A DNA stretch of 64,000 bases from Phycisphaerales bacterium (GTDB taxonomy: Bacteria > Planctomycetota > Phycisphaerae > Phycisphaerales > SM1A02). Position 1 is the first letter of the stretch; each line of letters opens with the position of its first letter. Below, piece by piece: positions 12,996-63,106 of the stretch. Under the pieces are notes generated by a model. That model made no database searches. It was not told the origin of the DNA and was given only the letters and a program-made list of their open reading frames with translations. The stretch covers positions 12,600 through 76,599 of the forward strand of contig JANQEQ010000091.1 in assembly GCA_028278245.1 (NCBI GenBank), given 5' to 3'. Made by a program: the position numbers and the translations under genes.

Positions 12996-13119
12996 CGAGT
13001 TGACGGCAATCCGTCAATATCCGCTTGCTCTCACCCTGAGATTCAGCGAAGCTGCACGTCCTATCCTAACCGGATGCGCTGATGCACCTGTCATGTTCTC
13101 CATTTTTGGGAGTAGAAAA

Positions 13120-14112
13120 ATGAAACTTGGCGTTATGGCAGCCTTATTTACCGGAATGTCCTTCGATGATGCCCTGGATTATTGTGCGGGGCTGGGGCTG
13201 GATGCCATCGAAATACCCGTGGGAGCGTACCCCGGCAAGCCCTTCTTCAATCCCACGTCGGTACTCCAGTCCACCAAAAAGCAGGAGGAGATCAAGGCTA
13301 AAATCCGTGAACGCGGCCTGGAAGTCTCCGCCCTGGCGGTGCACGGCAACCCGATCCATCCCAACAAGGCCCACGCGCGGCGGGATCACGACGCCTTTGT
13401 AACGGCCGTGAAACTCGCCCCCAAACTGGGAACAAATGTCGTCAATACCTTCTCCGGCTGCCCCGGTGGCTCCAAGACGGACAAAACGCCGAACTGGGTC
13501 ACCTGTGCCTGGCCGGACGATTACCAGGCGATCCAAGCCTACCAGTGGGATGAAGTGCTGGTGCCGTACTGGGCGCAGCAGGCCAAGTTCCTCAAGCACT
13601 ACAAGGTGAAGGTGGGGTGGGAAGCGCATCCGGGATTCTGTGTGTACAACCCCGATACGCTCATTCGCCTTTCTCAGAGAGCTTCGAAACTGGCCGGGAT
13701 CAAAGGTAAAACTCCGTTGGGGGCGAACTACGATCCGTCCCATTTCTTCTGGCAGGGGATTGATCCGGTACTGGCGGCGCGCGAGATTGCCGAAGCGGGT
13801 TTGATGTACCACGTGCATGCCAAGGATACGGAACTCGATCCCGTGCAAGGGCCGATCAACGGCTACCTCGATGCCCGACCCTACAGCAATCTGCATCAAC
13901 GGTCCTGGTCGTTCCGCACCTGTGGCTACGGCCACGGCGATGAGTTCTGGAAACCGCTCATCTCACTGCTCAAACGCTACGGCTACGAAGGCGTGCTCAG
14001 TATCGAACACGAAGATTCACTGATGAGTGTCGAAGAAGGATTTGAAAAAGCCGTCGCTTATCTTGGTCAGATCATTATCGAGGAACAGGCCGGCCAGCCG
14101 TGGTGGTGCTAA
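13120..14112 (+). CDS. Sugar phosphate isomerase/epimerase (xylose-isomerase-like TIM barrel)
   Basis: MKLGVMAALFTGMSFDDALDYCAGLGLDAIEI is a typical AP_endonuc_2 family start. The internal Met was chosen because an RBS lies upstream. Confidence 0.7.
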   Translation: MKLGVMAALFTGMSFDDALDYCAGLGLDAIEIPVGAYPGKPFFNPTSVLQSTKKQEEIKAKIRERGLEVSALAVHGNPIHPNKAHARRDHDAFVTAVKLAPKLGTNVVNTFSGCPGGSKTDKTPNWVTCAWPDDYQAIQAYQWDEVLVPYWAQQAKFLKHYKVKVGWEAHPGFCVYNPDTLIRLSQRASKLAGIKGKTPLGANYDPSHFFWQGIDPVLAAREIAEAGLMYHVHAKDTELDPVQGPINGYLDARPYSNLHQRSWSFRTCGYGHGDEFWKPLISLLKRYGYEGVLSIEHEDSLMSVEEGFEKAVAYLGQIIIEEQAGQPWWC

Positions 14113-14126
14113 GGGAGAAAAGGTAC

Positions 14127-14657
14127 CTAATACCTTTTCTTTGCCACGAGTGACTTGATAAGGGAGTGTGCTGCCACTTCGCCTTCGTGTATCCAGATAT
14201 CGTCTACGCCTCCGGTACCGTCCTCCAGATGCCGTTGAATACACGCGAACGCTTCGTCCACCTCGATTACAGAAACGCCAAAATCTATTTGGTGCTCGGT
14301 GCGGAAATTTTTAAGATCATTGTGGGCGATCCGTTTGTTCCGCGCCGTCTTGATCTTGTTGCGAAACGGCTTCAATATGGGACATAACTCACAATCGATG
14401 ACACCTTCCAAGGTCAGATTGTGGTTGCTACCTTGCGTGACCGGATCAAGTATTCGTGCCAGACCCAATAAGATATCCGTGCGAAGTGCATCCTGAAGGC
14501 ATCCGCCAGCTACATTAGATGCGCGATTGAGGGCATCAACCCCGTCGCCTTTGCCCACAAACAAACCTTTCCACAAGCCCCACTTCATGCGGAGCATGCG
14601 GTTTTCCCGCACCAAGAGATCGCGATCGTTCGCTGTTTGCGCAGGGGTACCTGTCAT
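14127..14657 (-). CDS. Hypothetical protein with HEPN-like Rx5H motif (RNKRIAHND)
   Basis: 176 aa, alpha-helical, with one R-x5-H motif. It overlaps the upstream small membrane gene in an ATGA arrangement. Confidence 0.35.
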   Translation of the reverse strand: MTGTPAQTANDRDLLVRENRMLRMKWGLWKGLFVGKGDGVDALNRASNVAGGCLQDALRTDILLGLARILDPVTQGSNHNLTLEGVIDCELCPILKPFRNKIKTARNKRIAHNDLKNFRTEHQIDFGVSVIEVDEAFACIQRHLEDGTGGVDDIWIHEGEVAAHSLIKSLVAKKRY

Positions 14658-14938
14658 GATTCAGTACCACAAGTCGCGCCTACATCGTCTTCTGGATCAT
14701 TGTTCTGTCTACTCTTCTTGACGTGGCCAAAGACCAGAGAAGCGATCCATCCGAGGACGAGTGCCGGAATCCCAGTACCAAAGAGCCAGCCCAGGAAGTA
14801 ACCACTCCCGTCACGATTGCCCTCAATAACCGCTGCCATAAACCCATAGAACGCCATTTCGGACGAACGCCAGAACGCGAGCGCACCAAGTAGAAAGACA
14901 ACAGCGAACACAATGAAGAACACCTTTTTGCGCGACAT
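14654..14938 (-). CDS. Small two-TM membrane protein
   Basis: 94 aa with two hydrophobic helices, co-operonic with the HEPN-like ORF. Confidence 0.4.
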   Translation of the reverse strand: MSRKKVFFIVFAVVFLLGALAFWRSSEMAFYGFMAAVIEGNRDGSGYFLGWLFGTGIPALVLGWIASLVFGHVKKSRQNNDPEDDVGATCGTES

Positions 14939-15201
14939 GTGTCGTTCCTTGTTAGTTTGCGAATCTGCAAAGGAATGAATGTAGGATTAGTCGAGCGACA
15001 TAGGAGCGATCCCCACCATCTTCCATTCCCCAGTCATTCCGGCGCGGGCAGGAATCCAGTAGATAGTCATTCATCGTCCAGATTAACACCGGATACCAGA
15101 TAACATCCTGCACTTTTTGCACAAATGAAGATGCAACTTCCTAGTCGGATGGTGTTTCCCAAACACAACACAACAGGAGAAGAGTTTCTGACCCCCTTGT
15201 G

Positions 15202-15870
15202 CTATGCACATTCCCATTTTTCGCCGGGTTTCATGGCCATGACTTCAACCCCTGCGGGAGTGAACGCGGAGATGTCATCGGTGAGCAACGGCCAGGTGCC
15301 GTAGTGAATGGGAATCGCTACCCTGGGTTTGATCAGTTCCGCGGCCTTGGCACCCAGTTCCGGCCCCATGGTGAAGCGATCACCCACGGGAATCATCGCG
15401 ACGTCCGGTTTATAAATCTCGCCGATCAATTTCATATCGCTGAACAAACTCGTATCGCCGCAGTGATAGATCGTGGTGCCGTCGAGATTGACGATCGCGC
15501 CGCAGGGCATGCCCATGTACTTGCCATTGAACGATGAAGAGTGGAACGCCTGGGTGAGCGCGACGAAGCCGAAGTCGGCTGCGACCTTTCCGCCCGGATT
15601 CATGGGTTCGAGTTTCCCCACCGCATGTTCGCCACAGTATTCGCAGATTTCAAACGCGCCGTAGACCGTGGCGTCGTTGGCCTTGGCGATGGCGATCGTG
15701 TCACCGAAGTGATCAGCGTGGCCGTGCGTCAGCACCACCGCCTGGCACTTGATGTCGTCCGGCTTGAGCGTGGCGACCGGATTACCGGTGAGAAAGGGAT
15801 CAATGGCGACTGCGCTGGAGCCTTCCAGCAGAAAACCCGCGTGTCCGAGGAATTGAATTGTGATTGACAT
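15202..15870 (-). CDS. Metal-dependent hydrolase, MBL fold (UPF0173-like)
   Basis: HGHADHFGD metallo-beta-lactamase motif, 222 aa. Confidence 0.8.
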   Translation of the reverse strand: MSITIQFLGHAGFLLEGSSAVAIDPFLTGNPVATLKPDDIKCQAVVLTHGHADHFGDTIAIAKANDATVYGAFEICEYCGEHAVGKLEPMNPGGKVAADFGFVALTQAFHSSSFNGKYMGMPCGAIVNLDGTTIYHCGDTSLFSDMKLIGEIYKPDVAMIPVGDRFTMGPELGAKAAELIKPRVAIPIHYGTWPLLTDDISAFTPAGVEVMAMKPGEKWECA

Positions 15871-15941
15871 GACCAGCTTCCTGTATCAGAAGAGTGTGTG
15901 GTCGCCATTGTAATATGGACAAAGGAGCCTGTGGGAAATAG

Positions 15942-15962
15942 CTGCGAGTCAACGACTCACAG
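15942..15962. repeat. REP-like palindromic element (ctgcgagtc-aac-gactcacag)
   Basis: One of four copies of the ~21-nt hairpin CTGCGAGTC-GTT-GACTCGCAG in the window; all copies are intergenic. Confidence 0.6.
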
Positions 15963-15971
15963 ATCATCAAC

Positions 15972-17198
15972 TCAATTGTGTGGGGGGGTTAGCGCCAAGT
16001 GGCAGAACATCTCAATACCGATGGGCAGGGCATCATCATTAAAATCGAACGTGGGCTGGTGCAGGCCTGGCATGGAATCCTGCGCTGGAGGCAGCAAACC
16101 CAAAAAAAAGAAGCACGAGGGAAGCGCCTGGCAGTAAAACGAGAAATCCTCCCCACCCATGATCGGATCCGTCACGCGTGCCACGCGCTCTGAGCCAAGG
16201 CTCTCGGTGGCAACTCGCTCAAACACATCGACCGCCCCCACATCATTTTCCGTGACGGGGTAACCATCAATGTACTCAACATCGATCCGGCAATCGAACG
16301 CTTTACCGATTCCCTCTGCGATTTGCTGCAACCGGTTCACCGTGGCGGTTTTTGTTTCTCTGCGCAGTGTTCTCACTGTGCCGCCCAGTTGCACGCTATC
16401 GGGAATGATGTTGTGCGTCGTGCCGCCGTGGATCTGCGTGGTGGAGACGACCACACTATCCAGCGGATCGACATTCCGCGCGGCAATGTTCTGCAGAGCA
16501 CTGATCAGGGCCGCGCTGCACACGATCGGATCGCGTCCCTTGTGGGGTAATGCTGCGTGCCCGCCGATCCCGTGTATCGTCATTTGGAATTCATCAGCCG
16601 CAGCCAGTAACGGTCCCGGACGAGTGCCAACCGATCCCAGCGGCATGTACGGCCAACCGTGAAGGCCGAACATCATCGACAACGGCGGTCCGAGTATTCG
16701 CCCATCCACACAACCATCCTCCACCATGCGTCTTCCCCCAGCCCCGCCTTCCTCCGCCGGCTGAAACAGGAAAGTGATTGGCCGGGGCAACGATGACTCC
16801 CGTGCCAGCTTACCCAGAACACGAGCCGCACCGAGCAGGATTGTCGTATGACCATCGTGGCCGCAGGCGTGCATTTTTCCAGTGGTCATTGACACATAAG
16901 GAAGATCGCTTTCTTCCTGGATCGGTAATGCGTCCATGTCCGCCCGTAAGCCGATGGCCGGCGCATCTCCCGCGGGGATGTGGCCGAGGATTCCCGTGCC
17001 TCCTGCCAGGCCGGCCCGATGAGATACACCCGCAGTCTCCAGCTCCCGGCACACCATTTCCGCCGTCCGATTTTCTTCATAACCCAGCTCCGGATTGGCG
17101 TGAAGATCGTGGCGAATTTTGATGAGATCCGGTAACTCCTGGCGGATCATTTCGCGCAAAAAATCATCAGTAATTTCAGTAGGATTTTTGATTGTCAT
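15972..17198 (-). CDS. M20/M20D family amidohydrolase (hippurate hydrolase / N-acyl-amino acid amidohydrolase-like)
   Basis: HACGHDGH metal-binding motif, 408 aa. Confidence 0.85.
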   Translation of the reverse strand: MTIKNPTEITDDFLREMIRQELPDLIKIRHDLHANPELGYEENRTAEMVCRELETAGVSHRAGLAGGTGILGHIPAGDAPAIGLRADMDALPIQEESDLPYVSMTTGKMHACGHDGHTTILLGAARVLGKLARESSLPRPITFLFQPAEEGGAGGRRMVEDGCVDGRILGPPLSMMFGLHGWPYMPLGSVGTRPGPLLAAADEFQMTIHGIGGHAALPHKGRDPIVCSAALISALQNIAARNVDPLDSVVVSTTQIHGGTTHNIIPDSVQLGGTVRTLRRETKTATVNRLQQIAEGIGKAFDCRIDVEYIDGYPVTENDVGAVDVFERVATESLGSERVARVTDPIMGGEDFSFYCQALPSCFFFLGLLPPAQDSMPGLHQPTFDFNDDALPIGIEMFCHLALTPPHN

Positions 17199-17252
17199 GT
17201 GCCTATCCTAGCTCCTTCATTTCACATGAGGATACGCCAAATCCTCATCTGA

Positions 17253-17828
17253 TTGAACAGGAGGTTCCTTGCCATGGATATGCAGGTACTTTTCGTATGC
17301 AGTTTGATCTTCTTTGCCCGGGTGATTGACGTCACCCTGGGTACGCTGCGCACCGTCTGGATTGTTGAGGGTCGCCGGTGGTCGGTGTTCCTGCTGGGAT
17401 TCATCGAAATCCTGGTCTGGATTTTTGCGGTCTCTGAAGTCATGCAGAAGATGGACAATCCGATGTACGCGATGTTCTATGCCCTGGGATTCGCCACGGG
17501 TAACTATGTTGGTATCACCCTGGAGCGATATCTGGCTTACGGCGAGCAGATCGTCCGGATCTTCTCCCGTCACGGTAACATCCTCGCCCAGGCGTTCCGT
17601 AATCTCGACTTCGGCGTCACGGTGTTTCGAGGTGACGGGCGCGATTCACAGATAGACATGTGTTTCATCGAGACCCGCCGCCGCCGAGTGCGTGAGATCG
17701 TCAAGCTCGCGCGGGAACTCGATCCCTCATGTTTTTATGTGATCGACACGGTTCAGGTGGCTTCGACCGCGAAGCCGGCCGAGGCGCGTAATCCCACCGG
17801 ATGGCGCGCTGTTCTCAAAAAGAAATAA
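17253..17828 (+). CDS. DUF2179 / UPF0316 family membrane protein
   Basis: ARVIDVTLGTLRTVWIVEGRR and GFATGNYVGITLE motifs of UPF0316. Confidence 0.55.
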   Translation: MNRRFLAMDMQVLFVCSLIFFARVIDVTLGTLRTVWIVEGRRWSVFLLGFIEILVWIFAVSEVMQKMDNPMYAMFYALGFATGNYVGITLERYLAYGEQIVRIFSRHGNILAQAFRNLDFGVTVFRGDGRDSQIDMCFIETRRRRVREIVKLARELDPSCFYVIDTVQVASTAKPAEARNPTGWRAVLKKK

Positions 17829-17842
17829 CGAAAGGCATACGT

Positions 17843-18691
17843 TTATTCTGACCATCCGTGAAGCGCCGGCTCGGCAAACTTTAACCGCTCGACCATAACC
17901 CGCATCGCTTCCTCATTATTATCTACCAGCACCGCGCTGCGCCCTTGCTGCAATGCTGCCTCACCCGTCGTCCCGCTACCGGCAAAGAAATCCAGAACGC
18001 AATCACCGGGATTGCTATGCACACGAATGATCCGATCGATCACACCTCGCGGTTTCTGTGTGGGGTAACCCGTTTTTTCCTTGCCGCTCGGGCTGACAAT
18101 CGTGTGCCACCACGTATCCGTCGGCGTTTTGCCGCGCTCCACCTTTTCCTTCGTGACTAATCCTGGTGCCATGTACGGAATGCGATCAATGTCTTCATAG
18201 CGGTACGTGTAATTTTCCGGATCCTTTGCGTACCAGAGAATGTTGTCGTGCTTGGGTGACCATCGCTTCTGCGATCTCGCGCCGTAATCATACGCCCAGA
18301 TGATTTCATTGATGAACGATGACCGGCCGAAGATCCCGTCCAGCATCACCTTGCAGTAATGCACTTCGCGGTAATCCAGATGTAGGAAAAAACTCCCCTG
18401 CGGTTTGAGCAGTCGATACGCTTCCTCCAGCCGCGGTTCAAGAAAGCCCAGGAAATCATCGAATTGATCTGCAAATGCTTTCTGCCCGAGGTGAACTGTG
18501 CGATATCGCTTGCCCTTGAAACCTGCGCGATCACCCTGATCATCCTGCAAGGTGCGAATCTGCGCGCGGCTCTGCTTCTTCCCCGTATTGAACGGCGGAT
18601 CGACATAGATGAGATCAAAACTCTCTTCAGGAAAGCTCTGGAGGATTGGCAGGTTGTCGCCGAAATGAATGTCAAGCGTCGGAGTGGTCAA
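17843..18691 (-). CDS. Site-specific DNA methyltransferase (N6-adenine/N4-cytosine, beta class)
   Basis: Motif IV DPPF (YVDPPFNTG) lies before motif I FFAGSGTTG, in N6_N4_Mtase family order, 282 aa. Confidence 0.85.
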   Translation of the reverse strand: MTTPTLDIHFGDNLPILQSFPEESFDLIYVDPPFNTGKKQSRAQIRTLQDDQGDRAGFKGKRYRTVHLGQKAFADQFDDFLGFLEPRLEEAYRLLKPQGSFFLHLDYREVHYCKVMLDGIFGRSSFINEIIWAYDYGARSQKRWSPKHDNILWYAKDPENYTYRYEDIDRIPYMAPGLVTKEKVERGKTPTDTWWHTIVSPSGKEKTGYPTQKPRGVIDRIIRVHSNPGDCVLDFFAGSGTTGEAALQQGRSAVLVDNNEEAMRVMVERLKFAEPALHGWSE

Positions 18692-18741
18692 AGTTCAGCG
18701 CGATCGAAGAATGTGTAATCCGTCATATCAACACGAACATA

Positions 18742-20187
18742 CTACCGATCTTCGATCCCATCTGCTGCATCCTTCGCCCGATAGGCGACCAGTTTGTTTC
18801 CCAGAAAAGTCGGGATGATCAACAGCCTCTGCTCGGGCACATATTCAAAATCAGCAGTATTCAAACCCACTTCCTGAAGATCCAGCACCCGGGTGATAGT
18901 GCCATCCGGCTCCACCAGATACACCTGCCCTTCCCAGTGAGACACGAACAGACGGCCATTGCCGAATGATTTGATACCGTCGATCACGCCCATACCCAGG
19001 CTCGTCAGTGTGGTTACCTTGCCGGTGTCGATGGCAACCTGCTTGATCAATCCCTCGCCGACACTTCCAACGACGAGCGTATCATCCAGTGCGAGCAGAC
19101 CGTTGCCGCGATGCGCTGTTTGCCCGGTAACCAGTGTTTCAATCTGCCCTTTCTCCAGGCGATAAATGTCAGCCGCCTCGGGATCGCGCGAGGTATCGGT
19201 GATATACACCCTGCCTTGATCGTCCGCTGCCACGTCGTTGAGGAAACTCGTATCGGGGATCTTGTGGCGGGTCATGATGGTGCCACTCACCACATCGATC
19301 TCCGCTACGGTTCCGCTGCACTCGGCGACGAAGAGATGATCATCGACCAGGGCCATGCCGCACGGCCCATCGAGATCCTCAATCCATTTCAGCTCCAGAA
19401 CCCTCCCATCAAGCCCAACCCGCGAGATAAATCCCTGGTTGGCACTCTGACGACCGAGGTGATTGAAACTGCTGACGTACAGCACCTGCCGCTGCTCGTC
19501 ATAAAGCACTGACTCAGGCACGGCAAATACATCATCCGATTCCCATACTTTTTCCAGAAAGCCAGTGGTTTTCTTAACTTGCGATAGAGGAGCGCTGGAC
19601 AGGCAGCGGAAGGTCCAGTCCTTTTCGTTTTCCTTAACCCACAGGAAGAGTTCATTCAAACCGGGTCGAAGTTGACAGTCGATGGTACTCGCTGTACCGG
19701 ACCAGATGTTCTGACCGTTGAGGAAGAAGTAGCTTTGACCGGTGGTATCAAACTGCAACGTTATTTTGACTTCTGTATCACTCACGACAGCGCGGCGAAG
19801 CATCACGACGCGCTTGGTTTCTTCTGCTGAATCTTCAGGTCTGGCCGGTAGTGTGATTCTGCCTTGCTCATCAGGTTTCGTATCCTGCCACTGGCCGTGA
19901 AAGATCATGTAGAAGTGGGGGTATTGCGTTGTGTTGACACGCTGGGCATCAAACGTGCGCGAAATCTGCCAGCCATCAACGATGATCTTCTCCACAGATC
20001 CAACTGCTGGAGATATTGTTGCTATTACCAACACCACGAGCATCATGAATTTCCATAACCACGTATGACATCGATTCCAAAGCATAATGGTGGCACAGCC
20101 GTCTCGGCTATGTAATAGAAATGACAGGCGAGACGCCTGTCCCACCGTGGGATTTGTTGTATGGGTGTTTATACGTGTAATCTCCAT
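18742..20187 (-). CDS. Beta-propeller (NHL/SMP-30-like) repeat protein, probably membrane-anchored or secreted
   Basis: N-terminal hydrophobic helix. The C-terminal half has repeated hydrophobic-G-hydrophobic beta-strand units as in a 6-bladed propeller. Confidence 0.5.
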   Translation of the reverse strand: MEITRINTHTTNPTVGQASRLSFLLHSRDGCATIMLWNRCHTWLWKFMMLVVLVIATISPAVGSVEKIIVDGWQISRTFDAQRVNTTQYPHFYMIFHGQWQDTKPDEQGRITLPARPEDSAEETKRVVMLRRAVVSDTEVKITLQFDTTGQSYFFLNGQNIWSGTASTIDCQLRPGLNELFLWVKENEKDWTFRCLSSAPLSQVKKTTGFLEKVWESDDVFAVPESVLYDEQRQVLYVSSFNHLGRQSANQGFISRVGLDGRVLELKWIEDLDGPCGMALVDDHLFVAECSGTVAEIDVVSGTIMTRHKIPDTSFLNDVAADDQGRVYITDTSRDPEAADIYRLEKGQIETLVTGQTAHRGNGLLALDDTLVVGSVGEGLIKQVAIDTGKVTTLTSLGMGVIDGIKSFGNGRLFVSHWEGQVYLVEPDGTITRVLDLQEVGLNTADFEYVPEQRLLIIPTFLGNKLVAYRAKDAADGIEDR

Positions 20188-20391
20188 CAGCTTACACCTT
20201 CTTGAATCTCTTCACGAGCTACGATCGCTATGGGGCAATAGAGAAAGTGTTCCTCTGTACCAGACCGCTCCCTCACGGTCGCGGCTCGTTGAAGATCACT
20301 GTTACACAGGCATCTCAGGATTATTCAATTTTTACTGGAGGGGGATCGTGCAGGTTGCGGTGGTAGTTTGCCTAACTCTGATGTTGTGCAT

Positions 20392-21495
20392 TCAGAACCA
20401 TGCGGAGAATGCGTAGGCAAAAGCACTGATGATACGTAAACCAATAAAATAGAGCGTGTAGAGGCTGCCCAACACGAAGAAAAACGCACATGTATACCGC
20501 CATTTCAAACGGCACCAATCAGCACTTCGATATTCAAGAAGTGGATTCTTTGTCACCCGCTCCCAACCGACTTCACTCTGCTCCTGGACAATTGATGGGC
20601 ATCTGAGTTTGAAAATTGTTGATGCGATCGCTAATGCGATAATAGCAGCAAGTTGGAATCCAAGACTTACTGGAATGGGTAGTGGAGGTAGCTTTGTGAG
20701 CCATTCAATCCACGATGGACCACCATCAGCCATTGTCTGCTCTGCCCATTGTGCAAGACCAAAAAGACCATCATTGTACCAGTGTACGAACGTGATGTAG
20801 AGCGTAAGTAAGATAACCGTAAGGTAGGACACACCAAAGAGTCGCAATTGGCCGATGGTACGAAGGAGGCTCCATTTGATGTAGTCAAGATGTTGGTGAA
20901 AGATCGTATTTTCCACGTTTACGATTTGGTCCTGGTTGATTGCTGTTGCATCGCCAAAGAGACCGTGTGTCCCCCTTAAGCAAGTCGAATACACATCCGC
21001 CGCCTGGAGATTCGCCCGGCTGAGTTTAGCTCCACAGAGGTCCGTCAATATGAGACTAGCGCAGCTGAGGTTCGCCCCAGTGAGGTTCGCTCCACGGAGG
21101 ACTGCCTCTCTGAGATTCGCATTGCTGAAATCCGCACCGACAAGGCTCGCTTCACTGAGATTTGCCCCACTGAAATCTGCCTCTACGAGGTCCGCATTGA
21201 AGAGCTTTGCTCCGATGAGTTTAGCTCCCCGGAAGTCCACCCCGCTGAGATTCGGCTTGTGCTGTGGCACTTTGAAGTCAATGATCACCAAGGGTTCGCC
21301 GGGTCTGCGCTTCGACCCGCAGAAATCGGCCAAACTAAGATCTGGATCCCACGTCGGATGTTTGTTTCGTAGAGTGTTCCATGCCTCAACCTTGCCAGCA
21401 CGAAGCATTTCAATTGCTTCTTCATTAGTAATTGGAGCGTCGTTTGATTCATCAGCCATGACAATTCCTACTGAAAGGCGAGTGACGGATTTCAA
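20392..21495 (-). CDS. Pentapeptide-repeat protein with C-terminal multi-pass transmembrane domain
   Basis: A(D/N)LxxA(D/N)L pentapeptide tandems at residues ~70-170 and four or more hydrophobic helices in the last ~170 aa. The N-terminal ~45 aa are homologous to the adjacent TIR gene. Confidence 0.7.
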   Translation of the reverse strand: MKSVTRLSVGIVMADESNDAPITNEEAIEMLRAGKVEAWNTLRNKHPTWDPDLSLADFCGSKRRPGEPLVIIDFKVPQHKPNLSGVDFRGAKLIGAKLFNADLVEADFSGANLSEASLVGADFSNANLREAVLRGANLTGANLSCASLILTDLCGAKLSRANLQAADVYSTCLRGTHGLFGDATAINQDQIVNVENTIFHQHLDYIKWSLLRTIGQLRLFGVSYLTVILLTLYITFVHWYNDGLFGLAQWAEQTMADGGPSWIEWLTKLPPLPIPVSLGFQLAAIIALAIASTIFKLRCPSIVQEQSEVGWERVTKNPLLEYRSADWCRLKWRYTCAFFFVLGSLYTLYFIGLRIISAFAYAFSAWF

Positions 21496-21497
21496 TC

Positions 21498-22634
21498 TTA
21501 GGATCGATCGTCTGTAGCTGCGGGTTCATCCTTCTTCAGATCTGTGATCAGCCAATCAACCGCTTCATTGAATTTTGCCTCATCCTGCCACTCAGTAAAA
21601 TCAGGGATGTTGTACTTACGTACTTCACGGCTAAGATTACGACCGGTATCTGGATCACTACACTTCCACATTTCGAGATCTTCATAGGGCATAAGGGAGA
21701 TTGGGAATAATGTTCGTTTACCGGTTTCATTCTGTTTCTTGACGGCTTCGGCGAGTTCGGTTTCTACCCATGAACTTTTGATGCTGTGTTCAGACAGAAC
21801 AATAAGGAGGCGATCATTCGTTCGGACTGCTAGATGTAACTCTTCAGAGGTATATCGCCCCCCACGAAGACGCTTCATTTTGGTTTGCTTCCGTGAGTAC
21901 CACACCGGCACCTTGGCATCCTCGAGTCGGGCATGGAGCTTGTCGCAGAATTCAGCATCCTGACTGCTGTGACTTAGGAAGCAGGAGTAAAACTCAAACG
22001 GTTGCATACTCGCGATGAGACTGGGTATGTAGGTAATCCAATTGTCCGGTACACCGCAACCACGAAGGAACTCCTCAGGAATCTTGCCTTTTGATTTGAT
22101 AATTGTGTCAATACCGATGGTGCTTGGATATTCGTTCCTCACCTTTTCAAGATTACGGGCTGTAGACAGATCAGTGTTGGCAAGTGTGGCCCATCCTAAA
22201 TATGCGCTCTCGAAATCTGCATTACTGACTTCAGTCCTGACAAGTTTTATTCCTGTTAAAATCGCGCTGCAAAGTCGAGATCTATTGAGATTTGCATCGA
22301 CAAGATAAGCAATCGACAAATCTGCAAAGTTCAGGTAAGCGTCACTTATATTTGCCAATGCAAGATCTGCATTGCAAAGATTTGCGAAAATGAGGTTTGC
22401 CCGTTTTAAATTTACTTTCCTTAGGAATGATCCTCCTAAATTTGCCCCACTGAGTTCGATTCCTTGTAGGTCAGTAGGATTTTCAAAAGTTGAGAGAGTG
22501 GGCTTATCCCAACATGGATGGGCTTCTCTGTACTTGTTCCATTCCTCGACACTCCGCTTGAGCATTGCGACAGCTTCATCTCTTGACAGAGCCCCATCTT
22601 CTGAATTGTTCGACATATCACCGCCCTCATACAA
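21498..22634 (-). CDS. Pentapeptide-repeat protein with C-terminal TIR domain
   Basis: Pentapeptide repeats as in the neighbour. The C-terminus has TIR motifs FYSCFLSHSSQDAEF (box 1), RYTSEELHLA (putative catalytic Glu region) and SSWVETELAEAV (alpha-C WxxxE). Confidence 0.7.
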   Translation of the reverse strand: MYEGGDMSNNSEDGALSRDEAVAMLKRSVEEWNKYREAHPCWDKPTLSTFENPTDLQGIELSGANLGGSFLRKVNLKRANLIFANLCNADLALANISDAYLNFADLSIAYLVDANLNRSRLCSAILTGIKLVRTEVSNADFESAYLGWATLANTDLSTARNLEKVRNEYPSTIGIDTIIKSKGKIPEEFLRGCGVPDNWITYIPSLIASMQPFEFYSCFLSHSSQDAEFCDKLHARLEDAKVPVWYSRKQTKMKRLRGGRYTSEELHLAVRTNDRLLIVLSEHSIKSSWVETELAEAVKKQNETGKRTLFPISLMPYEDLEMWKCSDPDTGRNLSREVRKYNIPDFTEWQDEAKFNEAVDWLITDLKKDEPAATDDRS

Positions 22635-22723
22635 TTTTGTACCCCCAAGATAGCATCAGTGGGGCAATTACATCAACACCGAGGTGATGTGAATCTCTAC
22701 CGATCCTGGAATCTCCTAACTGA

Positions 22724-23431
22724 TCAGTGCTGGGGCGTTCGTTCATCGTTGTACCACAGGTCGAGACCCTCGCGGCTGCTGAGGCCGTGACGCGCCTTGA
22801 GGGAATAATGAACGAGGAGTTTGATACCCTGCCAGGCGGTGAGGTGGCCGATCTTGCGGCCGGAGGAGGTGGCGGTTTCCTTGAGAACGACGAATTTGCC
22901 CTGGCGTTTGAGAGCCTGGCTCATCCATACTTCCTCAGAGGCAAAATACTTCTCATCAAACCCCCCCACAGATATAAATGCGTTTCGTGTGGCGAAAACG
23001 TAACAGCCCGCAGCCAGGCGAAACATCCGGTAGATGCGAATAAACAACCAGGTCAGGAACCGCGCTCCAGCGTAGCGAATTCCTTCGATGTGGACGCGAC
23101 ATCCGCCACCAACTGCACCGTTATTGACCGCCAGTACGGTGGCATTGATTAACTCGGGAGTGACTACCGTATCAGCATCAACGAAAATGAAGAGGTCACC
23201 CCGGGCGATCTTTGCCCCGGCATTGCGTACTGCTGCTATCTGGCGTAACTCGACTTCGGTAACCTTAGCACCTGCATCGCGCGCGATTTCCACAGTGCGA
23301 TCCGTGCAGGTGTCGGCTGCCACGATGATCTCATATTCATCATCCACAGGTTCACCTGCGGCAACGATGCTGGCCAGTGTTCGGCCGATCAACTCTTCCT
23401 CGTTGTGGGCGGGGATGATGAACGAGATCAT
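22724..23431 (-). CDS. Glycosyltransferase family 2
   Basis: MISFIIPAHNEE...VDADT DXD-type GT2 signature, 235 aa. Confidence 0.8.
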   Translation of the reverse strand: MISFIIPAHNEEELIGRTLASIVAAGEPVDDEYEIIVAADTCTDRTVEIARDAGAKVTEVELRQIAAVRNAGAKIARGDLFIFVDADTVVTPELINATVLAVNNGAVGGGCRVHIEGIRYAGARFLTWLFIRIYRMFRLAAGCYVFATRNAFISVGGFDEKYFASEEVWMSQALKRQGKFVVLKETATSSGRKIGHLTAWQGIKLLVHYSLKARHGLSSREGLDLWYNDERTPQH

Positions 23432-23543
23432 GGCCCCAGCTTAGGAATTTCGTGGTGACCTGTCAGCAGTATCAGGGGGACGAAGATGTCGTTTGAGGGG
23501 TTGTGTGAGCAGGGATAAATTGCTAGCATTCTGGATTCGACGT

Positions 23544-23615
23544 GCGGGTGTAGCTCAGTGGTAGAGCGTCACGTTGCCAACGTGAATGTCGAGGGTTCGA
23601 ATCCCTTCACCCGCT
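23544..23615 (+). tRNA. tRNA-Gly (anticodon GCC)
   Basis: Cloverleaf folded by hand: acceptor gcgggtg/cacccgc, anticodon loop ttGCCaa, T-loop ttcgaat and discriminator U. Confidence 0.9.
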
Positions 23616-23621
23616 TTTATA

Positions 23622-23652
23622 TGACCGTCAGCCGTCCACTGACGGTCTTTCT
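23622..23652 (+). terminator. Terminator hairpin downstream of tRNA-Gly (gaccgtcag...ctgacggtc followed by a T-run)
   Basis: 9-bp perfect stem followed by tttctc. Confidence 0.55.
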
Positions 23653-23716
23653 CATTTCCATCCATCCTTTGTCGATCCCCCCTGGATAATCACTATAAAT
23701 TTTGACTTGACTGGCG

Positions 23717-24787
23717 ATGGCAAAGTTGAAATCACAGAACAAGAAGAAGCATCCGATAATGCACGGCCGCAGGTGCAATGCTTTGATTGAAAATCTGGGG
23801 GAGTGGTTTGATCAGCAGGGGCGTGACCTTCCCTGGCGGAGGAAGCGGACGCCTTACACAGCTCTGGTCGCCGAGGCAATGCTGCAGCAGACACAGGTGC
23901 AACGTGTGCTGGAGTATTACAATCGATTCATTCGCAGATTTCCCTCACTCAAGGCGCTGGCAGATGCGAACGAACAGGAAGTCCTCGCAGCATGGCAGGG
24001 ATTGGGGTATTACCGAAGAGCACGCAATCTTCATGCAGCGGCAAAGCAGATCAGGAAATGTCACGGTGGAAGAGTGCCCCGTCGAGTTGATCAATTGATA
24101 AAACTGCCGGGGGTTGGGCGTTATACGGCCGGTGCGCTGACTTCGATTGTATTCAATCTGGCAGAGCCAGTGGTCGATGGCAATGTCAAACGTGTTCTGA
24201 CGCGGTGGCAATGCACTTCACACAGAGAGGCTAAGAAAGTTCGGGAAGCGGACATCTGGCAGTGGGCAAAGGAGCTGGTTGAACAGGCACCTCAGCCTGG
24301 CAAGTTAAATGAAGCGATGATGGAATTGGGCGCTACGATCTGCAAGCCGAGGTCACCGGCATGTGATCGTTGTCCGGTATCAGCTTGGTGCAATGCGTTC
24401 CAGACAGGGAAGCCACAACAGATCAATTTTGCCAATAAGCGGATTTCGCAGAAAAGTGTGCATCACCATTCAGTGATATTCACCCGCAGCGGCCAGGTGT
24501 TGCTGGAACAGAGGTCAAGCGATGGATTGTGGGCAAATATGTGGCAGGTGCCGACGATTGAATCGAGTTGCGAACTGGAGCCGGCCAGGTTTGTGGCGGA
24601 AATTCCCTGTTGTATGGGTACTCCGAATAAATGTGGATCATTTGTCCACCAGACGACCCATCGGAAGATCACATTTCACGTGTATCACGGCAAGACCAGG
24701 CAGCGTCGCGGCCAGTGGCGGGAACTGACGAAAATTGATGGCCTTCCCATCAGCAATGCAATGCGTAAAGTCCTCCAATTTGCCTGA
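23717..24787 (+). CDS. mutY: A/G-specific adenine DNA glycosylase MutY
   Basis: HhH-GPD region LPGVGRYTAGA, the [4Fe-4S] cluster loop C-x6-C-x2-C-x5-C (CKPRSPACDRCPVSAWC), and a C-terminal NUDIX-like domain. The true start is possibly at 23759. Confidence 0.85.
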   Translation: MAKLKSQNKKKHPIMHGRRCNALIENLGEWFDQQGRDLPWRRKRTPYTALVAEAMLQQTQVQRVLEYYNRFIRRFPSLKALADANEQEVLAAWQGLGYYRRARNLHAAAKQIRKCHGGRVPRRVDQLIKLPGVGRYTAGALTSIVFNLAEPVVDGNVKRVLTRWQCTSHREAKKVREADIWQWAKELVEQAPQPGKLNEAMMELGATICKPRSPACDRCPVSAWCNAFQTGKPQQINFANKRISQKSVHHHSVIFTRSGQVLLEQRSSDGLWANMWQVPTIESSCELEPARFVAEIPCCMGTPNKCGSFVHQTTHRKITFHVYHGKTRQRRGQWRELTKIDGLPISNAMRKVLQFA

Positions 24788-25165
24788 ATCTACAATAATG
24801 AGGGGGTGTCAGGGTGCAAACGGCTATTGAAGACATAAATAGCAGTATATAATCCCAAAATATTGTGCTCTTACATGTTTTGAGGCTTCGGGATTTTTTA
24901 CCTAAATCTTGCAATTCCATACGCTTCCCTTACACTGTTGGTGAAGGTTGCCATGGGGTATCGGTCGATTTCCATGCCCTGTCATCCTTTCAGCGAGCAC
25001 CTCCCGACATATCTTCACGCTCGCTGGGTGATCGTGATACGGATACTTTCTTCGATCTATTCGTATCTCATTTCTGATCAAGCCGCGCACGGTGGCAATC
25101 GAGGATTTGTACAGAGATTGTTCTGCCTTGCGCAAGTGGCACGCCAGAGTTGATGCTATGAGGAG

Positions 25166-26338
25166 TTGACATCCATGAAACAAAAATCATTCAAAGGCTT
25201 TACCATTATTGAATTGCTGGTGGTGGTTTCCATCATCGCGCTGCTGATCGGTATTTTGCTGCCGGCAATAGGCAAAGCGCGTGATCAGGCAAAGCTCACA
25301 CAATCCAAGACCAATCTTCGCAACCTCGGTACTGCGCACGCAACTTATGCCAGTGAATGGAACGATCGACAGATCACGTTTGTCGATGACAATATCTCGC
25401 GCTATGGTGCCGATCAGACCTCAGCCTATGCCGCATATGAGGAAGCATTGGGTATGGAACATCCCGGTATGGTGCTCGGATGGGGTCATGTAACTGAAGG
25501 CCACGTTTCAAACGGAAACTTGTGGGGCTACTGGATGAGACACCCCGGGAACCAGGGTATGTGTGAACCTATCGGCTTTCCGGGTTACTCACAGGCTCAT
25601 TTTGAAGGATTCGGCTCCTTCCGTATGGCCAATTGCAGGCAGTTCAGCCAGTATGTGAGTGGAAAGTTTTACGATCCGGTGTTTTATGCCCCTAAGGACA
25701 AGGCAGCCTGGACCGCAATTGAGGAATGTCTGGATAACCCTGCCGAATTTTGTGATGCAGGCGGCCCATCTGATTGCTACTGGACCAGTTACTGTCTCTC
25801 GCCGGCGGCCATGTTCAGCCCTGATGTCATGCGCAACGAACGCGATGGCGGGTGGCAGAGTCCTTATGCAATCAATGGCGGATTCCGATCACCTTCCATG
25901 AGTCAGGCACAGTACCCACAACTCAAAACCCACATGATCGAGCACCACTGGCTTCAAGGCGCGCGCGCTGAATGCAATCCAGCTTGGGTCGAAGGAACCT
26001 TCAACGGCTGCGAGCCTTACTACTTCAACGCCAGCCGAGATTCCACGCCCATGTCGCTGTTCTACGATGGCCACATCGAACCAATAGGTGTTCAGGAAGC
26101 TATGAAATCCAGCGCTCGAAACTATGCTCAAACACATGAACAGGGTTTTGGTTTCCACTTGTGGCACAGGTTTACCCCCTTCCAAGGTACGGATCCGGAG
26201 CAAGCCGGCAGCGGTTGGCCAGAAGGCGGTTATTTCATGGACATGATCTACGATGGCGGCAGTTCATACGATGCCATCACCAGTTTCCACATCCTGACTA
26301 CAGACGGCATCCTTGGTCGAGATAAAACAGGCGGTTAA
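25166..26338 (+). CDS. DUF1559 protein with prepilin-type N-terminal cleavage/methylation domain (Planctomycete-type)
   Basis: KGFTIIELLVVVSIIALLIGILLPAIGKAR N-terminus, 390 aa. Confidence 0.85.
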   Translation: MTSMKQKSFKGFTIIELLVVVSIIALLIGILLPAIGKARDQAKLTQSKTNLRNLGTAHATYASEWNDRQITFVDDNISRYGADQTSAYAAYEEALGMEHPGMVLGWGHVTEGHVSNGNLWGYWMRHPGNQGMCEPIGFPGYSQAHFEGFGSFRMANCRQFSQYVSGKFYDPVFYAPKDKAAWTAIEECLDNPAEFCDAGGPSDCYWTSYCLSPAAMFSPDVMRNERDGGWQSPYAINGGFRSPSMSQAQYPQLKTHMIEHHWLQGARAECNPAWVEGTFNGCEPYYFNASRDSTPMSLFYDGHIEPIGVQEAMKSSARNYAQTHEQGFGFHLWHRFTPFQGTDPEQAGSGWPEGGYFMDMIYDGGSSYDAITSFHILTTDGILGRDKTGG

Positions 26339-43515: not shown

Positions 43516-44210
43516 ATCACTTTTACACCTGGAATTCATCTTGAATTTGGGAATGGAGTGTGTGTGGGGTGTTGAAATAGGAAGAGTGGATGAGATGGTC
43601 AAGGCTGGTTTCCTCTCAAACGGAAATGCTTCCATGACAGGGACATAAGATCCGCATGAATTTTCGATTTTTCCGATAATATCCCTTGACGCCCCAACGC
43701 AAATCACTAAATTACCTTCTACAAACCGAGAGAGAGAGTATGTTTGAGTGAGCCTCCTAGCACTCGAACGCACACCGATGAGAGAGAGGGAACTCCTTGT
43801 CGGTGTTTCTCTTTAATGAGGCACCGTGATGTGGACCGGCGTGAGCCGGCGTTTTTATTTTTGCCTCGAGGTTTTGAAATTCGTCTGAATGGACTGCATT
43901 GTTTTCGTGGATGCATTCGTTTCATCAGCTTCGCATCTCTTTATAGCAGATTGAATTCAAGAGTGTCGTTTGGGTGCGATGGTCTAAGCGATTACGGAGC
44001 GCAGTTCACGCGATCAGGACCGCCAACGTGGCCTTCGGCATTCGTCTTAGACCACGGCACCCTCTACGTTCGAATTCAAACTGCTCTAGTTCCCCCCTTC
44101 ACCAAACTGCGATACTGTCGTAGCGATCATGCAGTCCATCGACCGCTTACGTATGCGTAACCTACGGGTACCGGACAAGCCCAATCAGGTTTACACGGAA
44201 GTTAGACAGT

Positions 44211-44774: not shown

Positions 44775-44799
44775 TCCTACCTCCTTCTATGTGGTTCAG

Positions 44800-63065: not shown

Positions 63066-63106
63066 ACTCCTACTCCACCCCTCTCCCCCAGGGAGAGGGG
63101 TAGGAG

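What the first reader, a model, noticed from the sequence alone, without database searches (positions are those of the whole stretch)
20392..22634. Tandem pentapeptide-repeat genes with TIR and multi-TM C-termini: candidate defence or abortive-infection pair
Two adjacent genes are 2 nt apart on the same strand. Their N-terminal ~45 aa are homologous and both carry a long A(D/N)LxxA(D/N)L pentapeptide beta-helix, but their C-termini differ. The upstream gene ends in a TIR domain: FLSHSSQD box 1, SEEL Glu region and SSWVETEL alpha-C. The downstream gene ends in a domain of about four TM helices. Bacterial TIR domains are NAD+-degrading effectors in Thoeris and other anti-phage systems. Pairing a TIR effector with a membrane effector behind a shared pentapeptide module is not a described defence architecture as far as I know. 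From the sequence I read, the locus appears lower in GC than its surroundings (not computed). It lies 0.9 kb from tRNA-Gly and 2 kb from an orphan DNA methyltransferase.
Basis: partly seen in the sequence, partly recalled or inferred. Interest (0 to 1): 0.85.

Follow-up and report, generated by a model that had tools for sequence, protein, structure and literature searches.

The report
Pentapeptide-TIR gene beside pentapeptide-membrane gene
Two neighbouring genes do encode a pentapeptide-repeat protein ending in a TIR (NAD-cleaving type) domain and one ending in a three-helix membrane domain, but each belongs to its own widespread, uncharacterised family that elsewhere occurs without the other, so this looks like a one-off juxtaposition, not a conserved two-gene defence system.

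Summary
Gene A (22616..21498, minus strand, 372 aa) has an N-terminal cap, about 23 pentapeptide repeats, a conserved helical linker and a TIR domain. Its glutamate E287 is invariant across 32 family members and aligns with the glutamate I count as catalytic E208 of the NADase AbTIR. Gene B (21459..20392, minus strand, 355 aa) has the same type of cap and repeats, then a membrane domain with three TM helices, not four.

- A belongs to a large family (1678 hits; at least 572 loci in species-representative genomes). It has no conserved neighbour, and 0 of 80 loci carry a B-type gene.
- B belongs to a separate family (528 cluster representatives, no Pfam model). None of 12 contexts has a TIR neighbour.
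- The shared N-terminal cap is generic to both families and is not a sign of local duplication.

The window is housekeeping, with no ThsA-like or other known defence partner nearby. A is only a modest GC3 outlier (z = -1.9) and B lies within 1 SD.

Most likely A is a stand-alone TIR NADase-type module with a repeat scaffold or sensor, and B an unrelated membrane-anchored pentapeptide protein, possibly co-transcribed here. Interest is moderate to low.

The parts
21498..22616 (-). Gene A: 372-aa pentapeptide-repeat/TIR protein (P0001), ATG start at 22616; the maximal TTG ORF extends to 22634
   Evidence: ORF listing. The exact ATG-started product is in the public collection. Full-length homologues at 40-47% identity, E down to 3e-93. 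AF2 model pLDDT 86.9.
22497..22589 (-). A N-terminal helical cap (about residues 10-40; EAVAMLKRSVEEWNKYREAHPCW)
   Evidence: Conserved in the family alignment: E14, H15, G22, W26, N27, W29, R30 are nearly invariant. Two helices, 12-21 and 23-32, in the model. The same cap type occurs in B-family proteins.
22137..22484 (-). A pentapeptide-repeat beta-helix (about residues 45-160, roughly 23 repeats)
   Evidence: Pfam Pentapeptide E = 2.9e-16. pLDDT 96-98. Top Foldseek PDB hits are pentapeptide-repeat solenoids. Helix length varies from 73 to 247 aa across the family.
21993..22136 (-). A conserved helical linker (about residues 161-208; PSTIGIDTIIKSKGKIPEEFLRGCGVPDNWITYIPSL)
   Evidence: Dense run of invariant columns S165, S175, G177, I179, F183, L184, G186, G188, V189, I194. 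Helices 169-209 with pLDDT above 90. No Pfam model covers it.
21531..21992 (-). A TIR domain (about residues 209-362)
   Evidence: TIR_2 E = 1.3e-17, TIR 1.4e-6, ThsB_TIR 1.3e-5. PADLOC ThsB and PDC-S66 models hit the TIR region only. phmmer against the PDB hits AbTIR and Brucella TcpB. Foldseek: AbTir 7uxu_A, target TM-score 0.78.
21756..21758 (-). Codon of E287 (WVETEL), putative catalytic glutamate of the TIR domain
   Evidence: Invariant in 32 family members. Aligns with the Glu of AbTIR WTNYEL, which is E208 by my count of chain positions; its catalytic role is from established knowledge of AbTIR.
20392..21459 (-). Gene B: 355-aa pentapeptide-repeat protein with a C-terminal three-TM domain (P0002), ATG start at 21459; the maximal TTG ORF extends to 21495
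   Evidence: ORF listing. The exact ATG-started product is in the collection and in gene calls. AGGA lies 8-11 nt upstream of the ATG.
20965..21438 (-). B N-terminal cap (EEAIEMLRAGKVEAWNTLRNKHPTW) and pentapeptide beta-helix
   Evidence: Pfam Pentapeptide E = 1.9e-34. 35% identical to A over 165 aa. 15-nt periodic DNA repeats at 21007-21238.
20395..20883 (-). B C-terminal membrane domain: TM1 20776-20850, TM2 20605-20673, conserved loop (CPsivqEqSEvgWeRvtknPLlEYRsAdW), TM3 20419-20496
   Evidence: Kyte-Doolittle segments. Family of 528 cluster representatives with this domain at the C-terminus. Invariant W53, S68, A134, P145, W156, Y167, R178 in alignment A4. No Pfam model and no PDB sequence relative.
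20123..20141 (-). Terminator-like hairpin downstream of B; none was found between A and B
   Evidence: Consensus scan. The region's count of such sites is within what shuffles give, so it only suggests an A-B transcription unit.

Best explanation
A and B are members of two independent, widespread and experimentally uncharacterised families of pentapeptide-repeat proteins. They happen to lie next to each other, and are probably co-transcribed, in this genome. They are not a conserved two-component system.

A is a stand-alone cytoplasmic protein. A rigid pentapeptide beta-helix of rapidly varying length and a highly conserved helical linker carry a TIR domain of the AbTIR/TcpB type. Inferred mechanism: the beta-helix and linker control self-association of the TIR domains, either by binding a trigger or by scaffolding. 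The assembled TIR domains then use the invariant glutamate E287 to cleave NAD+, giving growth arrest or abortive infection. On this reading A is a single-gene conflict module.

B is a membrane-anchored pentapeptide protein. Its beta-helix faces the cytoplasm and its three-TM domain carries a conserved loop, predicted cytoplasmic, between TM2 and TM3. The role of B is unknown; the most likely is membrane tethering or scaffolding.

Shown: domain architecture, family membership, conservation of the glutamate, lack of synteny, and the housekeeping context. Inferred: NADase activity, oligomerisation control, any defence role, and co-transcription.
For: Architecture
- Pfam TIR_2 and Pentapeptide.
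- AF2 model of A, pLDDT 86.9, with beta-helix, helical linker and TIR fold.
- Foldseek hits to pentapeptide solenoids and to the AbTir TIR domain, target TM-score 0.78.
- E287 is invariant and aligns with the AbTIR glutamate I count as catalytic E208.

A family is large and self-contained
- 1678 hits, full-length at 40-47% identity.
- At least 572 loci among GTDB species representatives, mainly Acidobacteriota, Planctomycetota and Verrucomicrobiota.
- 8 of 71 assemblies have more than one locus. 10 of 80 loci have more than one TIR hit, mostly tandem pentapeptide-TIR paralogues.
- No neighbour cluster occurs in more than 9 of 80 loci. Recurrent neighbours are generic.

B family is separate
- 528 cluster representatives at E <= 1e-3, and 351 at <= 1e-10.
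- Most of the members sampled carry pentapeptide repeats N-terminal to the domain.

No co-occurrence
- 0 of 80 A loci have a B-type domain, by tblastn and by a 137-sequence profile HMM.
- 0 of 12 B contexts have a TIR gene.

Cap is generic
- B's cap is 63% identical to P0019, an A-family protein from another organism, against 44% to the window's A. Similar caps occur in B-family members P0161, P0143 and P0165.

Context
- The window is housekeeping, and no ThsA-like or other PADLOC partner is among the ten flanking genes (12979..26338).
Against: - The 38-nt gap, the same strand and the absence of a terminator-like site between the genes make co-transcription likely. Co-transcribed genes are often functionally linked.
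- Three other A-family loci (L017, L055, L056) have a membrane-anchored pentapeptide protein of a different family directly downstream. This hints at a recurring theme of TIR-pentapeptide plus membrane pentapeptide. However, the three downstream proteins are 64-76% identical to one another, so these loci count as one lineage.
- Sampling is limited. Only the 80 best of at least 572 A loci were examined, and only 12 B contexts. The closest A homologue is only about 47% identical, so conservation of the pair within the window's own lineage could not be tested.
- NADase activity and any phage phenotype are untested.
- A has a 5-residue insertion and low model confidence in the loop after beta-B (residues 243-255), and E instead of the family's near-invariant Q at position 259.
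Confidence: 0.6

Rival explanations
1. Lineage-specific two-gene abortive-infection operon. A and B associate through their similar pentapeptide beta-helices or respond to the same trigger. The cell is then killed or arrested by NAD+ depletion (A) together with membrane disruption (B).
For: - Same strand, 38-nt gap, no intervening terminator-like site, and a terminator-like hairpin after B.
- Both proteins carry the same cap and repeat module.
- Both are lower in GC than their flanks.
- Hailong's HalA is described as a pentapeptide-repeat plus channel effector, a precedent for a pentapeptide membrane effector.
- L017, L055 and L056 pair a pentapeptide-TIR gene with a different membrane pentapeptide protein.
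Against: - No co-occurrence anywhere else: 0 of 80 and 0 of 12.
- B hits no PADLOC model and no channel or other Pfam family outside the repeats.
- The cap is generic, so it is not evidence of a dedicated shared module.
- The context is housekeeping.
- B's composition is within 1 SD of the window's genes.
Confidence: 0.15
2. Neither gene is a defence gene. Both are ordinary members of the expanded pentapeptide-repeat repertoires of soil and aquatic bacteria. They act as scaffolds, with the TIR domain serving as a protein-interaction or NAD-linked regulatory domain and the three-TM domain as a membrane anchor. Tandem arrangement reflects the general tendency of pentapeptide genes to cluster.
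For: - Housekeeping neighbourhoods in the window and in several B contexts, including SRP54/Ppx/RecR, PHB metabolism and sulfatase genes.
- Adjacent pentapeptide genes are common: about 13 of the 80 A loci have another pentapeptide gene next door. The PDB holds a fusion of the two Nostoc pentapeptide proteins NP275 and NP276.
- The A family is almost absent from viral contigs, with 3 loci.
- No enrichment of a defence partner was seen.
Against: - The invariant glutamate at the catalytic position argues for enzymatic TIR function.
- Multi-copy occurrence, tandem paralogues and rapidly varying repeat number are, from general knowledge, typical of conflict genes.
- Scattered restriction-modification-type neighbours occur: N6_N4 MTase 4, ResIII 3, Mrr_cat 2, Uma2 2, NA-iREase1 2, of 129 neighbours.
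- One B context sits by DUF4145 and Schlafen-AlbA_2 genes, and another by an integrase and a transposase.
Confidence: 0.2
3. A is an orphan Thoeris-like ThsB sensor. Its TIR domain makes a signalling nucleotide for an effector encoded elsewhere in the genome, and B is irrelevant.
For: ThsB_TIR Pfam hit above its cut-off (25.9 bits against 21.2) and several PADLOC ThsB models down to E = 2.6e-9. Tandem TIR paralogues in 10 of 80 loci resemble multi-ThsB Thoeris loci.
Against: - No ThsA-like gene (SIR2, Macro or SLOG) among the window's genes or among recurrent neighbours of the family.
- The ThsB hits cover only the generic TIR core.
- The best solved-structure relatives are AbTIR and TcpB.
Confidence: 0.05

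Closest known systems
AbTIR / TcpB (BtpA)-type bacterial TIR NAD+ hydrolases
   Same: TIR fold; best solved-structure sequence matches (7uwg/8g83 AbTIR, 4lzp TcpB); Foldseek target TM-score 0.78 to 7uxu_A; a glutamate at the aligned catalytic position, invariant in the family.
   Different: Only about E = 1e-3 similarity at sequence level. A carries an N-terminal cap, a pentapeptide beta-helix and a family-specific conserved linker, not a coiled-coil N-terminus. A is a cytoplasmic protein of environmental bacteria rather than a pathogen-associated factor. Activity is untested.
Thoeris ThsB (TIR sensor of the ThsA/ThsB system)
   Same: The TIR core hits the ThsB_TIR Pfam model and PADLOC ThsB models. 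Family members form tandem paralogue arrays.
   Different: No ThsA effector nearby in the window or recurrently in 80 family loci. The pentapeptide beta-helix N-terminal to the TIR domain is not covered by the ThsB models, which match A's TIR core only.
Hailong HalA (DNA-gated channel effector; HalA/HalB system)
   Same: HalA is described as combining pentapeptide repeats with a membrane channel domain and causing membrane depolarisation (PMC13586616; PMC13434031). B likewise combines pentapeptide repeats with a membrane domain.
   Different: B has no IRK or ion-channel Pfam hit, its TM domain has no PDB sequence relative, and no HalB-like nucleotidyltransferase is adjacent. Homology of the TM domains was not shown. 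A structural comparison was impossible because B's model had pLDDT 48.
Soluble pentapeptide-repeat proteins (MfpA, Qnr, AlbG, HetL, Np275/Np276)
   Same: Right-handed quadrilateral beta-helix; top fold and sequence matches for the repeat regions of A and B. The PDB holds a fusion of the two Nostoc pentapeptide proteins NP275 and NP276.
   Different: Those proteins lack TIR or TM domains. The DNA mimics are, from my own knowledge, strongly acidic, whereas the helices of A (net -2) and B (net 0) are near neutral. All NCBIfam hits are far below their family cut-offs.
HglK-type membrane pentapeptide proteins (N-terminal TM helices plus C-terminal repeats; recalled from memory)
   Same: Membrane-anchored pentapeptide protein. 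This layout is seen in the genes downstream of A homologues in L017, L055 and L056.
   Different: B has the opposite order (repeats N-terminal, TM C-terminal) and an unrelated TM domain. HglK itself was not compared here.

Membership tests
TIR-domain NAD+ hydrolases (AbTIR/TcpB/SARM1-type) | TIR fold | tested here: met
   Pfam TIR_2 E = 1.3e-17. AF2 model plus Foldseek: AbTir 7uxu_A target TM-score 0.78, SPARTA TIR, TLR15 TIR.
TIR-domain NAD+ hydrolases (AbTIR/TcpB/SARM1-type) | Catalytic glutamate in the W-x-x-x-E-L helix | tested here: met
   E287 (WVETEL) aligns with the Glu of AbTIR WTNYEL, which I count as E208. It is invariant in 32 family members.
TIR-domain NAD+ hydrolases (AbTIR/TcpB/SARM1-type) | NAD+ cleavage activity dependent on TIR self-association | not testable with these tools
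   Requires an enzyme assay.
Thoeris (ThsA + ThsB) | ThsB-type TIR protein | tested here: met
   ThsB_TIR 25.9 bits against a cut-off of 21.2. PADLOC ThsB models down to E = 2.6e-9, covering the TIR core only.
Thoeris (ThsA + ThsB) | Adjacent ThsA effector (SIR2, Macro or TM domain with SLOG) | tested here: not met
   No such PADLOC or Pfam hit among the ten flanking genes, 12979..26338, or in the top families of the whole-window scans. Not among recurrent neighbours of 80 family loci.
Hailong (HalA + HalB) | Effector with a K+-channel-like TM domain | tested here: not met
   No IRK or Ion_trans hit for B or for 25 B-family domains. No PDB sequence hit for the TM domain.
Hailong (HalA + HalB) | Adjacent HalB nucleotidyltransferase | tested here: not met
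   The genes either side of the A-B pair are a GT2 glycosyltransferase and an SGL-like protein.
Pentapeptide-repeat proteins (PF00805) | Tandem A(D/N)LXX repeats forming a right-handed beta-helix | tested here: met
   A E = 2.9e-16, B E = 1.9e-34. Model of A pLDDT 96-98 across the helix. PDB solenoid hits.
Unnamed pentapeptide-TIR family (NCBI: 'toll/interleukin-1 receptor domain-containing protein') | Cap, pentapeptide helix, conserved linker (FLRGCGVPD) and TIR in one polypeptide, alignable end to end | tested here: met
   Full-length hits at 40-47% identity and 83-98% coverage, E down to 3e-93. A keeps all 43 invariant columns of alignment A1.
Unnamed pentapeptide / C-terminal three-TM family | C-terminal domain with three TM helices and the CP..V.E.SE..W.R....PL.EYR loop | tested here: met
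   B scores E = 7.3e-90 against a profile built from A2, an alignment that includes B's own domain. Independent support: the three homologues at 43-46% identity and 528 cluster representatives. Invariant columns in alignments A4 and A5.
Conserved two-gene defence system (A + B) | Co-occurrence of the two families in the same neighbourhood across genomes | tested here: not met
   0 of 80 A loci with a B domain (tblastn; profile HMM). 0 of 12 B contexts with a TIR gene.
Defence-island resident | Neighbourhood enriched in known defence genes | tested here: not met
   Window: housekeeping genes. The only PADLOC hits among the ten flanking genes (12979..26338) are a solitary MTase and MutY. For the family at large the result is inconclusive: scattered R-M-type neighbours, at most 4 of 129 for any one family.

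The most novel reading that the evidence does not exclude
The cap plus pentapeptide beta-helix is a portable sensor or assembly module that evolution has fused to alternative toxic outputs: a TIR NADase in the A family and a three-TM membrane domain in the B family. In this genome the two versions form a dual-effector abortive-infection operon, perhaps as a heteromeric beta-helix assembly, that couples NAD+ depletion to membrane damage. Pentapeptide-TIR proteins would then be a large unrecognised class of single-gene defence systems in Acidobacteriota, Planctomycetota and Verrucomicrobiota.
Probability: 0.12. Interest if true: 0.7.

Novelty: new variant of a known kind. Interest (0 to 1): 0.33.

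Why it matters
If pentapeptide-TIR proteins proved to be NADase defence modules, the pentapeptide beta-helix would join TPR, LRR and WD40 repeats as a sensor or scaffold for bacterial TIR effectors. A family with at least 572 loci among species-representative genomes of under-studied soil and aquatic phyla would gain a function. Its extremely conserved linker would be an obvious target for mechanism studies.

The specific pairing that made the finding look exciting is not conserved. As it stands, the locus mainly adds one more member to two catalogued but uncharacterised families.

Tried and rejected
- Structure of B. The single-sequence AF2 model had pLDDT 48 and is unusable, so no fold search for the TM domain was run. 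In hindsight the 137-sequence family alignment should have been used.
- Locus scans. The metagenome scan with the broad B alignment failed for lack of conserved stretches. The tighter alignment returned only 5 loci. Viral contigs gave 3 A-family loci and no B-family loci.
- BLAST-only synteny test. It might miss distant B relatives, so it was repeated with a profile HMM, which also gave zero.
- Apparent synteny in L017, L055 and L056. The downstream gene is a different family, with TM helices N-terminal and repeats C-terminal, and the three loci are one lineage.
- Local duplication of the N-terminal module. Rejected, because B's cap and helix are closer to A-family proteins of other organisms than to the window's A.
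- tRNA-linked genomic island. Rejected. A native-composition GT2 gene separates the pair from tRNA-Gly, and no flanking direct repeats were found.
- Restriction partner for the methyltransferase. The PADLOC 'nicking endonuclease' hit is MutY, with HhH-GPD and NUDIX_4 domains.
- DNA-mimic bait idea. The helix charge of A (-2) and B (0) is near neutral, and the family is only mildly acidic, so this is not supported here.
- Literature. No description of the pentapeptide-TIR family was found. The primary Hailong paper is not held.
Full report
**1. Observation**

The window has two minus-strand ORFs at 21498..22634 (378 aa from a TTG) and 20392..21495 (367 aa from a TTG), 2 nt apart. The exact products held in the public collection, and called on the matching public contig, start at the internal ATGs. 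These give A = 22616..21498 (372 aa, P0001) and B = 21459..20392 (355 aa, P0002). The real intergenic gap is therefore most likely 38 nt, with an AGGA 8-11 nt upstream of B's ATG.

- Pfam gives A a TIR_2 hit (E = 1.3e-17) plus TIR, ThsB_TIR and Pentapeptide. B gets Pentapeptide (E = 1.9e-34) and nothing for its C-terminal half.
- BLASTP of A against B gives 35% identity over 165 aa (E = 1e-16), including the pre-repeat cap.
- B's C-terminus has three strong hydrophobic segments, not four.
- tRNA-Gly lies 0.9 kb away and an N6_N4 DNA methyltransferase 1.7 kb away.
- GC is lower than in the flanks: A 45.3%, B 49.4%, window 52.2%. Ranked against all 57 ORFs of the window, A is only the 4th lowest in GC3 (z = -1.9), with ordinary codon usage (z = -0.8). 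B's GC3 of 0.50 is about 0.9 SD below the mean of the other ORFs.
- No flanking direct repeats mark an insertion. A GT2 gene of native composition separates the pair from the tRNA.

The description is confirmed with small corrections.

**2. Gene A**

A search of the 5.8-billion-protein collection found 1678 relatives. The top 120 are all full-length matches (83-98% coverage, 33-49% identity) with the same Pentapeptide + TIR architecture. Where named, they are called 'toll/interleukin-1 receptor domain-containing protein' or 'TIR domain/Pentapeptide repeats'.

An alignment of 32 members (A1) defines four parts:
- an N-terminal cap (MANPEHLxILKQGVExWNxWR);
- a beta-helix of variable length (73-247 aa across the family);
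- a strikingly conserved linker (GPSTIGIDTIYKSxGKIPExFLRGCGVPDxFIxYIPSL);
- the TIR domain.

The AlphaFold model built on this alignment is confident (pLDDT 86.9). It shows a cap of two helices, the solenoid, a helical linker (pLDDT above 90) and an alpha/beta TIR fold. Foldseek against the PDB returns pentapeptide solenoids and TIR domains, including AbTir 7uxu_A at target TM-score 0.78. By sequence, the TIR region's only solved relatives are the AbTIR NAD+ hydrolase and Brucella TcpB.

In that alignment the Glu of A's WVETEL pairs with the Glu of AbTIR's WTNYEL. By my count of chain positions this is E208, the catalytic residue (its role is from established knowledge of AbTIR). The residue, E287 in A, is invariant in the family. 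A does differ from the consensus by a 5-residue insertion in the loop after beta-B, where the model is unconfident (residues 243-255).

**3. Gene B**

With the word-indexed search, B's C-terminal 192 aa found only three relatives. An exhaustive HMMER search with a four-sequence profile found 528 cluster representatives at E <= 1e-3, and 351 at <= 1e-10. These are typically 300-500 aa proteins with the domain at the C-terminus, and most of the members I inspected carry pentapeptide repeats N-terminal to it.

The domain has three TM helices and a conserved loop between TM2 and TM3 (CP..V.E.SE..W.R....PL.EYR.A.W). By topology reasoning this loop should face the cytoplasm. The domain has no Pfam model, no PADLOC hit and no relative among PDB sequences. 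My single-sequence structure prediction of B was too poor to use (pLDDT 48).

**4. Is the pair a system?**

From the A side, 80 loci from species-representative genomes were fetched with 6-kb flanks.
- None contains a B-type domain, by tblastn or by a 137-sequence profile HMM run over all their ORFs.
- All-vs-all clustering of about 1,570 neighbouring ORFs found no cluster present in more than 9 of 80 loci. The recurring clusters I scanned are generic: ABC transporter, SmpB, UbiA, amidohydrolase, sigma-54 activator fragments. The exception is an MTase-Mrr fusion in 4 loci.
- What does recur is paralogy. 10 of 80 loci have more than one TIR hit, mostly tandem pentapeptide-TIR genes and up to three in a row. 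8 of 71 assemblies contribute more than one locus.
- Three loci (L017, L055, L056) have a membrane pentapeptide protein immediately downstream. It is a different family, with TM helices N-terminal and repeats C-terminal, and the three downstream proteins are 64-76% identical to one another, so they count as one lineage.

From the B side, none of 12 contexts has a TIR gene. These are three Phycisphaerales-like homologues, five metagenome loci and four further family members. Their surroundings range from SRP54/Ppx/RecR and PHB metabolism to an integrase/transposase region and a DUF4145/Schlafen-AlbA_2 region.

The shared N-terminus is not specific to the pair. B's cap is 63% identical to that of P0019, an A-family protein from another organism, against 44% to the window's A. 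B's first 165 residues match many A-family proteins better (40-44%) than the window's A (35%). The same cap occurs in unrelated B-family members. There is thus no evidence of local duplication. The cap plus helix is a promiscuous module.

**5. Context**

The 64-kb window encodes housekeeping functions, including Trp synthase, GMP synthase, glutamine synthetase III, trigger factor, ClpX, ribosomal L21, an M20 peptidase and MutY. PADLOC hits are limited to the solitary methyltransferase, a generic 'mad2' match in two proteins, and a 'nicking endonuclease' model that in fact matches MutY. No ThsA-like gene is present among the window's genes, and no HalB-like nucleotidyltransferase is adjacent. 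Neither family is meaningfully phage-borne: 3 loci for A and none for B in 2.9 million viral contigs. The organism is probably a planctomycete. This is inferred from an N-terminal-methylation-motif protein of the type abundant there and from the Phycisphaerales affiliation of B's closest relatives. It was not verified.

**6. Mechanism**

The best-supported reading is that A is a stand-alone TIR enzyme. Its invariant catalytic-position glutamate, rigid repeat helix of rapidly varying length and ultra-conserved linker suggest regulated self-association of TIR domains followed by NAD+ cleavage. That is how AbTIR-type and other bacterial TIR effectors work (established knowledge). The fold and the residue are shown here; the activity is inferred.

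Multi-copy and tandem occurrence and repeat-length variation are typical of conflict genes, and scattered R-M-type neighbours fit that. The lack of a defence-island signal and of phage association keeps a defence role unproven. A DNA-mimic bait role for the helix is not specifically supported: net charge is -2 for A and 0 for B, with a family median of -4.3 per 100 aa.

B is best described as a membrane-anchored pentapeptide protein of unknown role. The Hailong effector HalA is reported to combine pentapeptide repeats with a K+-channel-like domain and to depolarise the membrane. It is a functional precedent, but B fails the tests I could run: no channel-family hit, no HalB partner and no sequence relationship.

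The 38-nt gap, the absence of a terminator-like site between the genes and a hairpin plus T-run after B make co-transcription plausible. A lineage-specific functional coupling therefore cannot be excluded, and I give it about 15%.

**7. Novelty and verdict**

No paper in the held library describes the pentapeptide-TIR family or a pentapeptide-TIR plus membrane pair. Conflict-system surveys mention pentapeptide repeats only as generic scaffolding or variable modules. Both families are, however, already present in public databases under automatic names.

The locus is a new variant of a known kind: a bacterial TIR effector with a repeat module. The feature that made it look exceptional, a conserved dual-effector pair, is not supported. 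Interest is moderate to low for the locus itself. The pentapeptide-TIR family as a whole, with its conserved linker and its expansion in Acidobacteriota, is the more worthwhile follow-up.

Noticed in passing
window 21993-22136 (A residues ~161-208); alignment A1: The roughly 45-residue helical linker between the beta-helix and the TIR domain (GPSTIGIDTIYKSxGKIPExFLRGCGVPDxFIxYIPSL) is the most conserved part of the pentapeptide-TIR family. It is confidently modelled and has no Pfam model. It may be an uncharacterised regulatory or interaction element.
   Followed up: partly
L072 5908-9685; L024, L036, L060, L068, L070, L084, L085: Tandem arrays of two or three paralogous pentapeptide-TIR genes occur among the 10 of 80 family loci that have more than one TIR hit. 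8 of 71 assemblies carry several dispersed copies. This expansion pattern is strongest in Acidobacteriota and Verrucomicrobiota.
   Followed up: partly
L017 7272-8474; L055 7088-8356; L056 7079-8317: In one lineage the pentapeptide-TIR gene is followed about 130 nt downstream by a 400-422 aa protein with three N-terminal TM helices and C-terminal pentapeptide repeats (an HglK-like layout). It is a second, non-homologous example of a TIR-pentapeptide gene next to a membrane pentapeptide gene.
   Followed up: partly
window 17843-18691; L015 2580-4154, L020, L043, L059: An N6_N4 DNA methyltransferase, fused to an Mrr-like nuclease domain in L015, lies within about 2 kb of the pentapeptide-TIR gene in 4 of 80 family loci. 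A solitary one lies 1.7 kb from B in the window. This may be coincidence.
   Followed up: partly
window 62478-63727: Two adjacent plus-strand ORFs (62478-63065 and 63107-63727) have the lowest GC in the window (about 0.41; GC3 0.38-0.43). They are more deviant than the finding itself and could be foreign DNA.
   Followed up: no
window 43468-45648: Several short ORFs around tRNA-Arg (45789-45862) combine low GC3 with the most atypical codon usage in the window (z about -2.2 to -2.5). They may be spurious ORFs or an acquired segment.
   Followed up: no
window 23717-24787: MutY (HhH-GPD, NUDIX_4 and an FeS motif) scores E = 1.6e-31 against the PADLOC 'Type II nicking endonuclease' model PDLC03398. 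This could mislead automated defence annotation.
   Followed up: yes
L002 7317-8720; L004 7581-8984; L005 3772-5175: The Phycisphaerales-like B homologues are annotated as 239-327 aa, but the open frame extends to 467 aa, similar to the 461-aa relative P0125. Their annotated starts are probably too far downstream.
   Followed up: no
window 18742-20187: The 481-aa SGL/NHL-like ORF downstream of B probably starts further in, near 20085, at a signal-peptide-like MLWNRCHTWLWKFMMLVVLVIATISPAVG. That would leave the terminator-like hairpin at 20123-20141 in the intergenic region after B.
   Followed up: no
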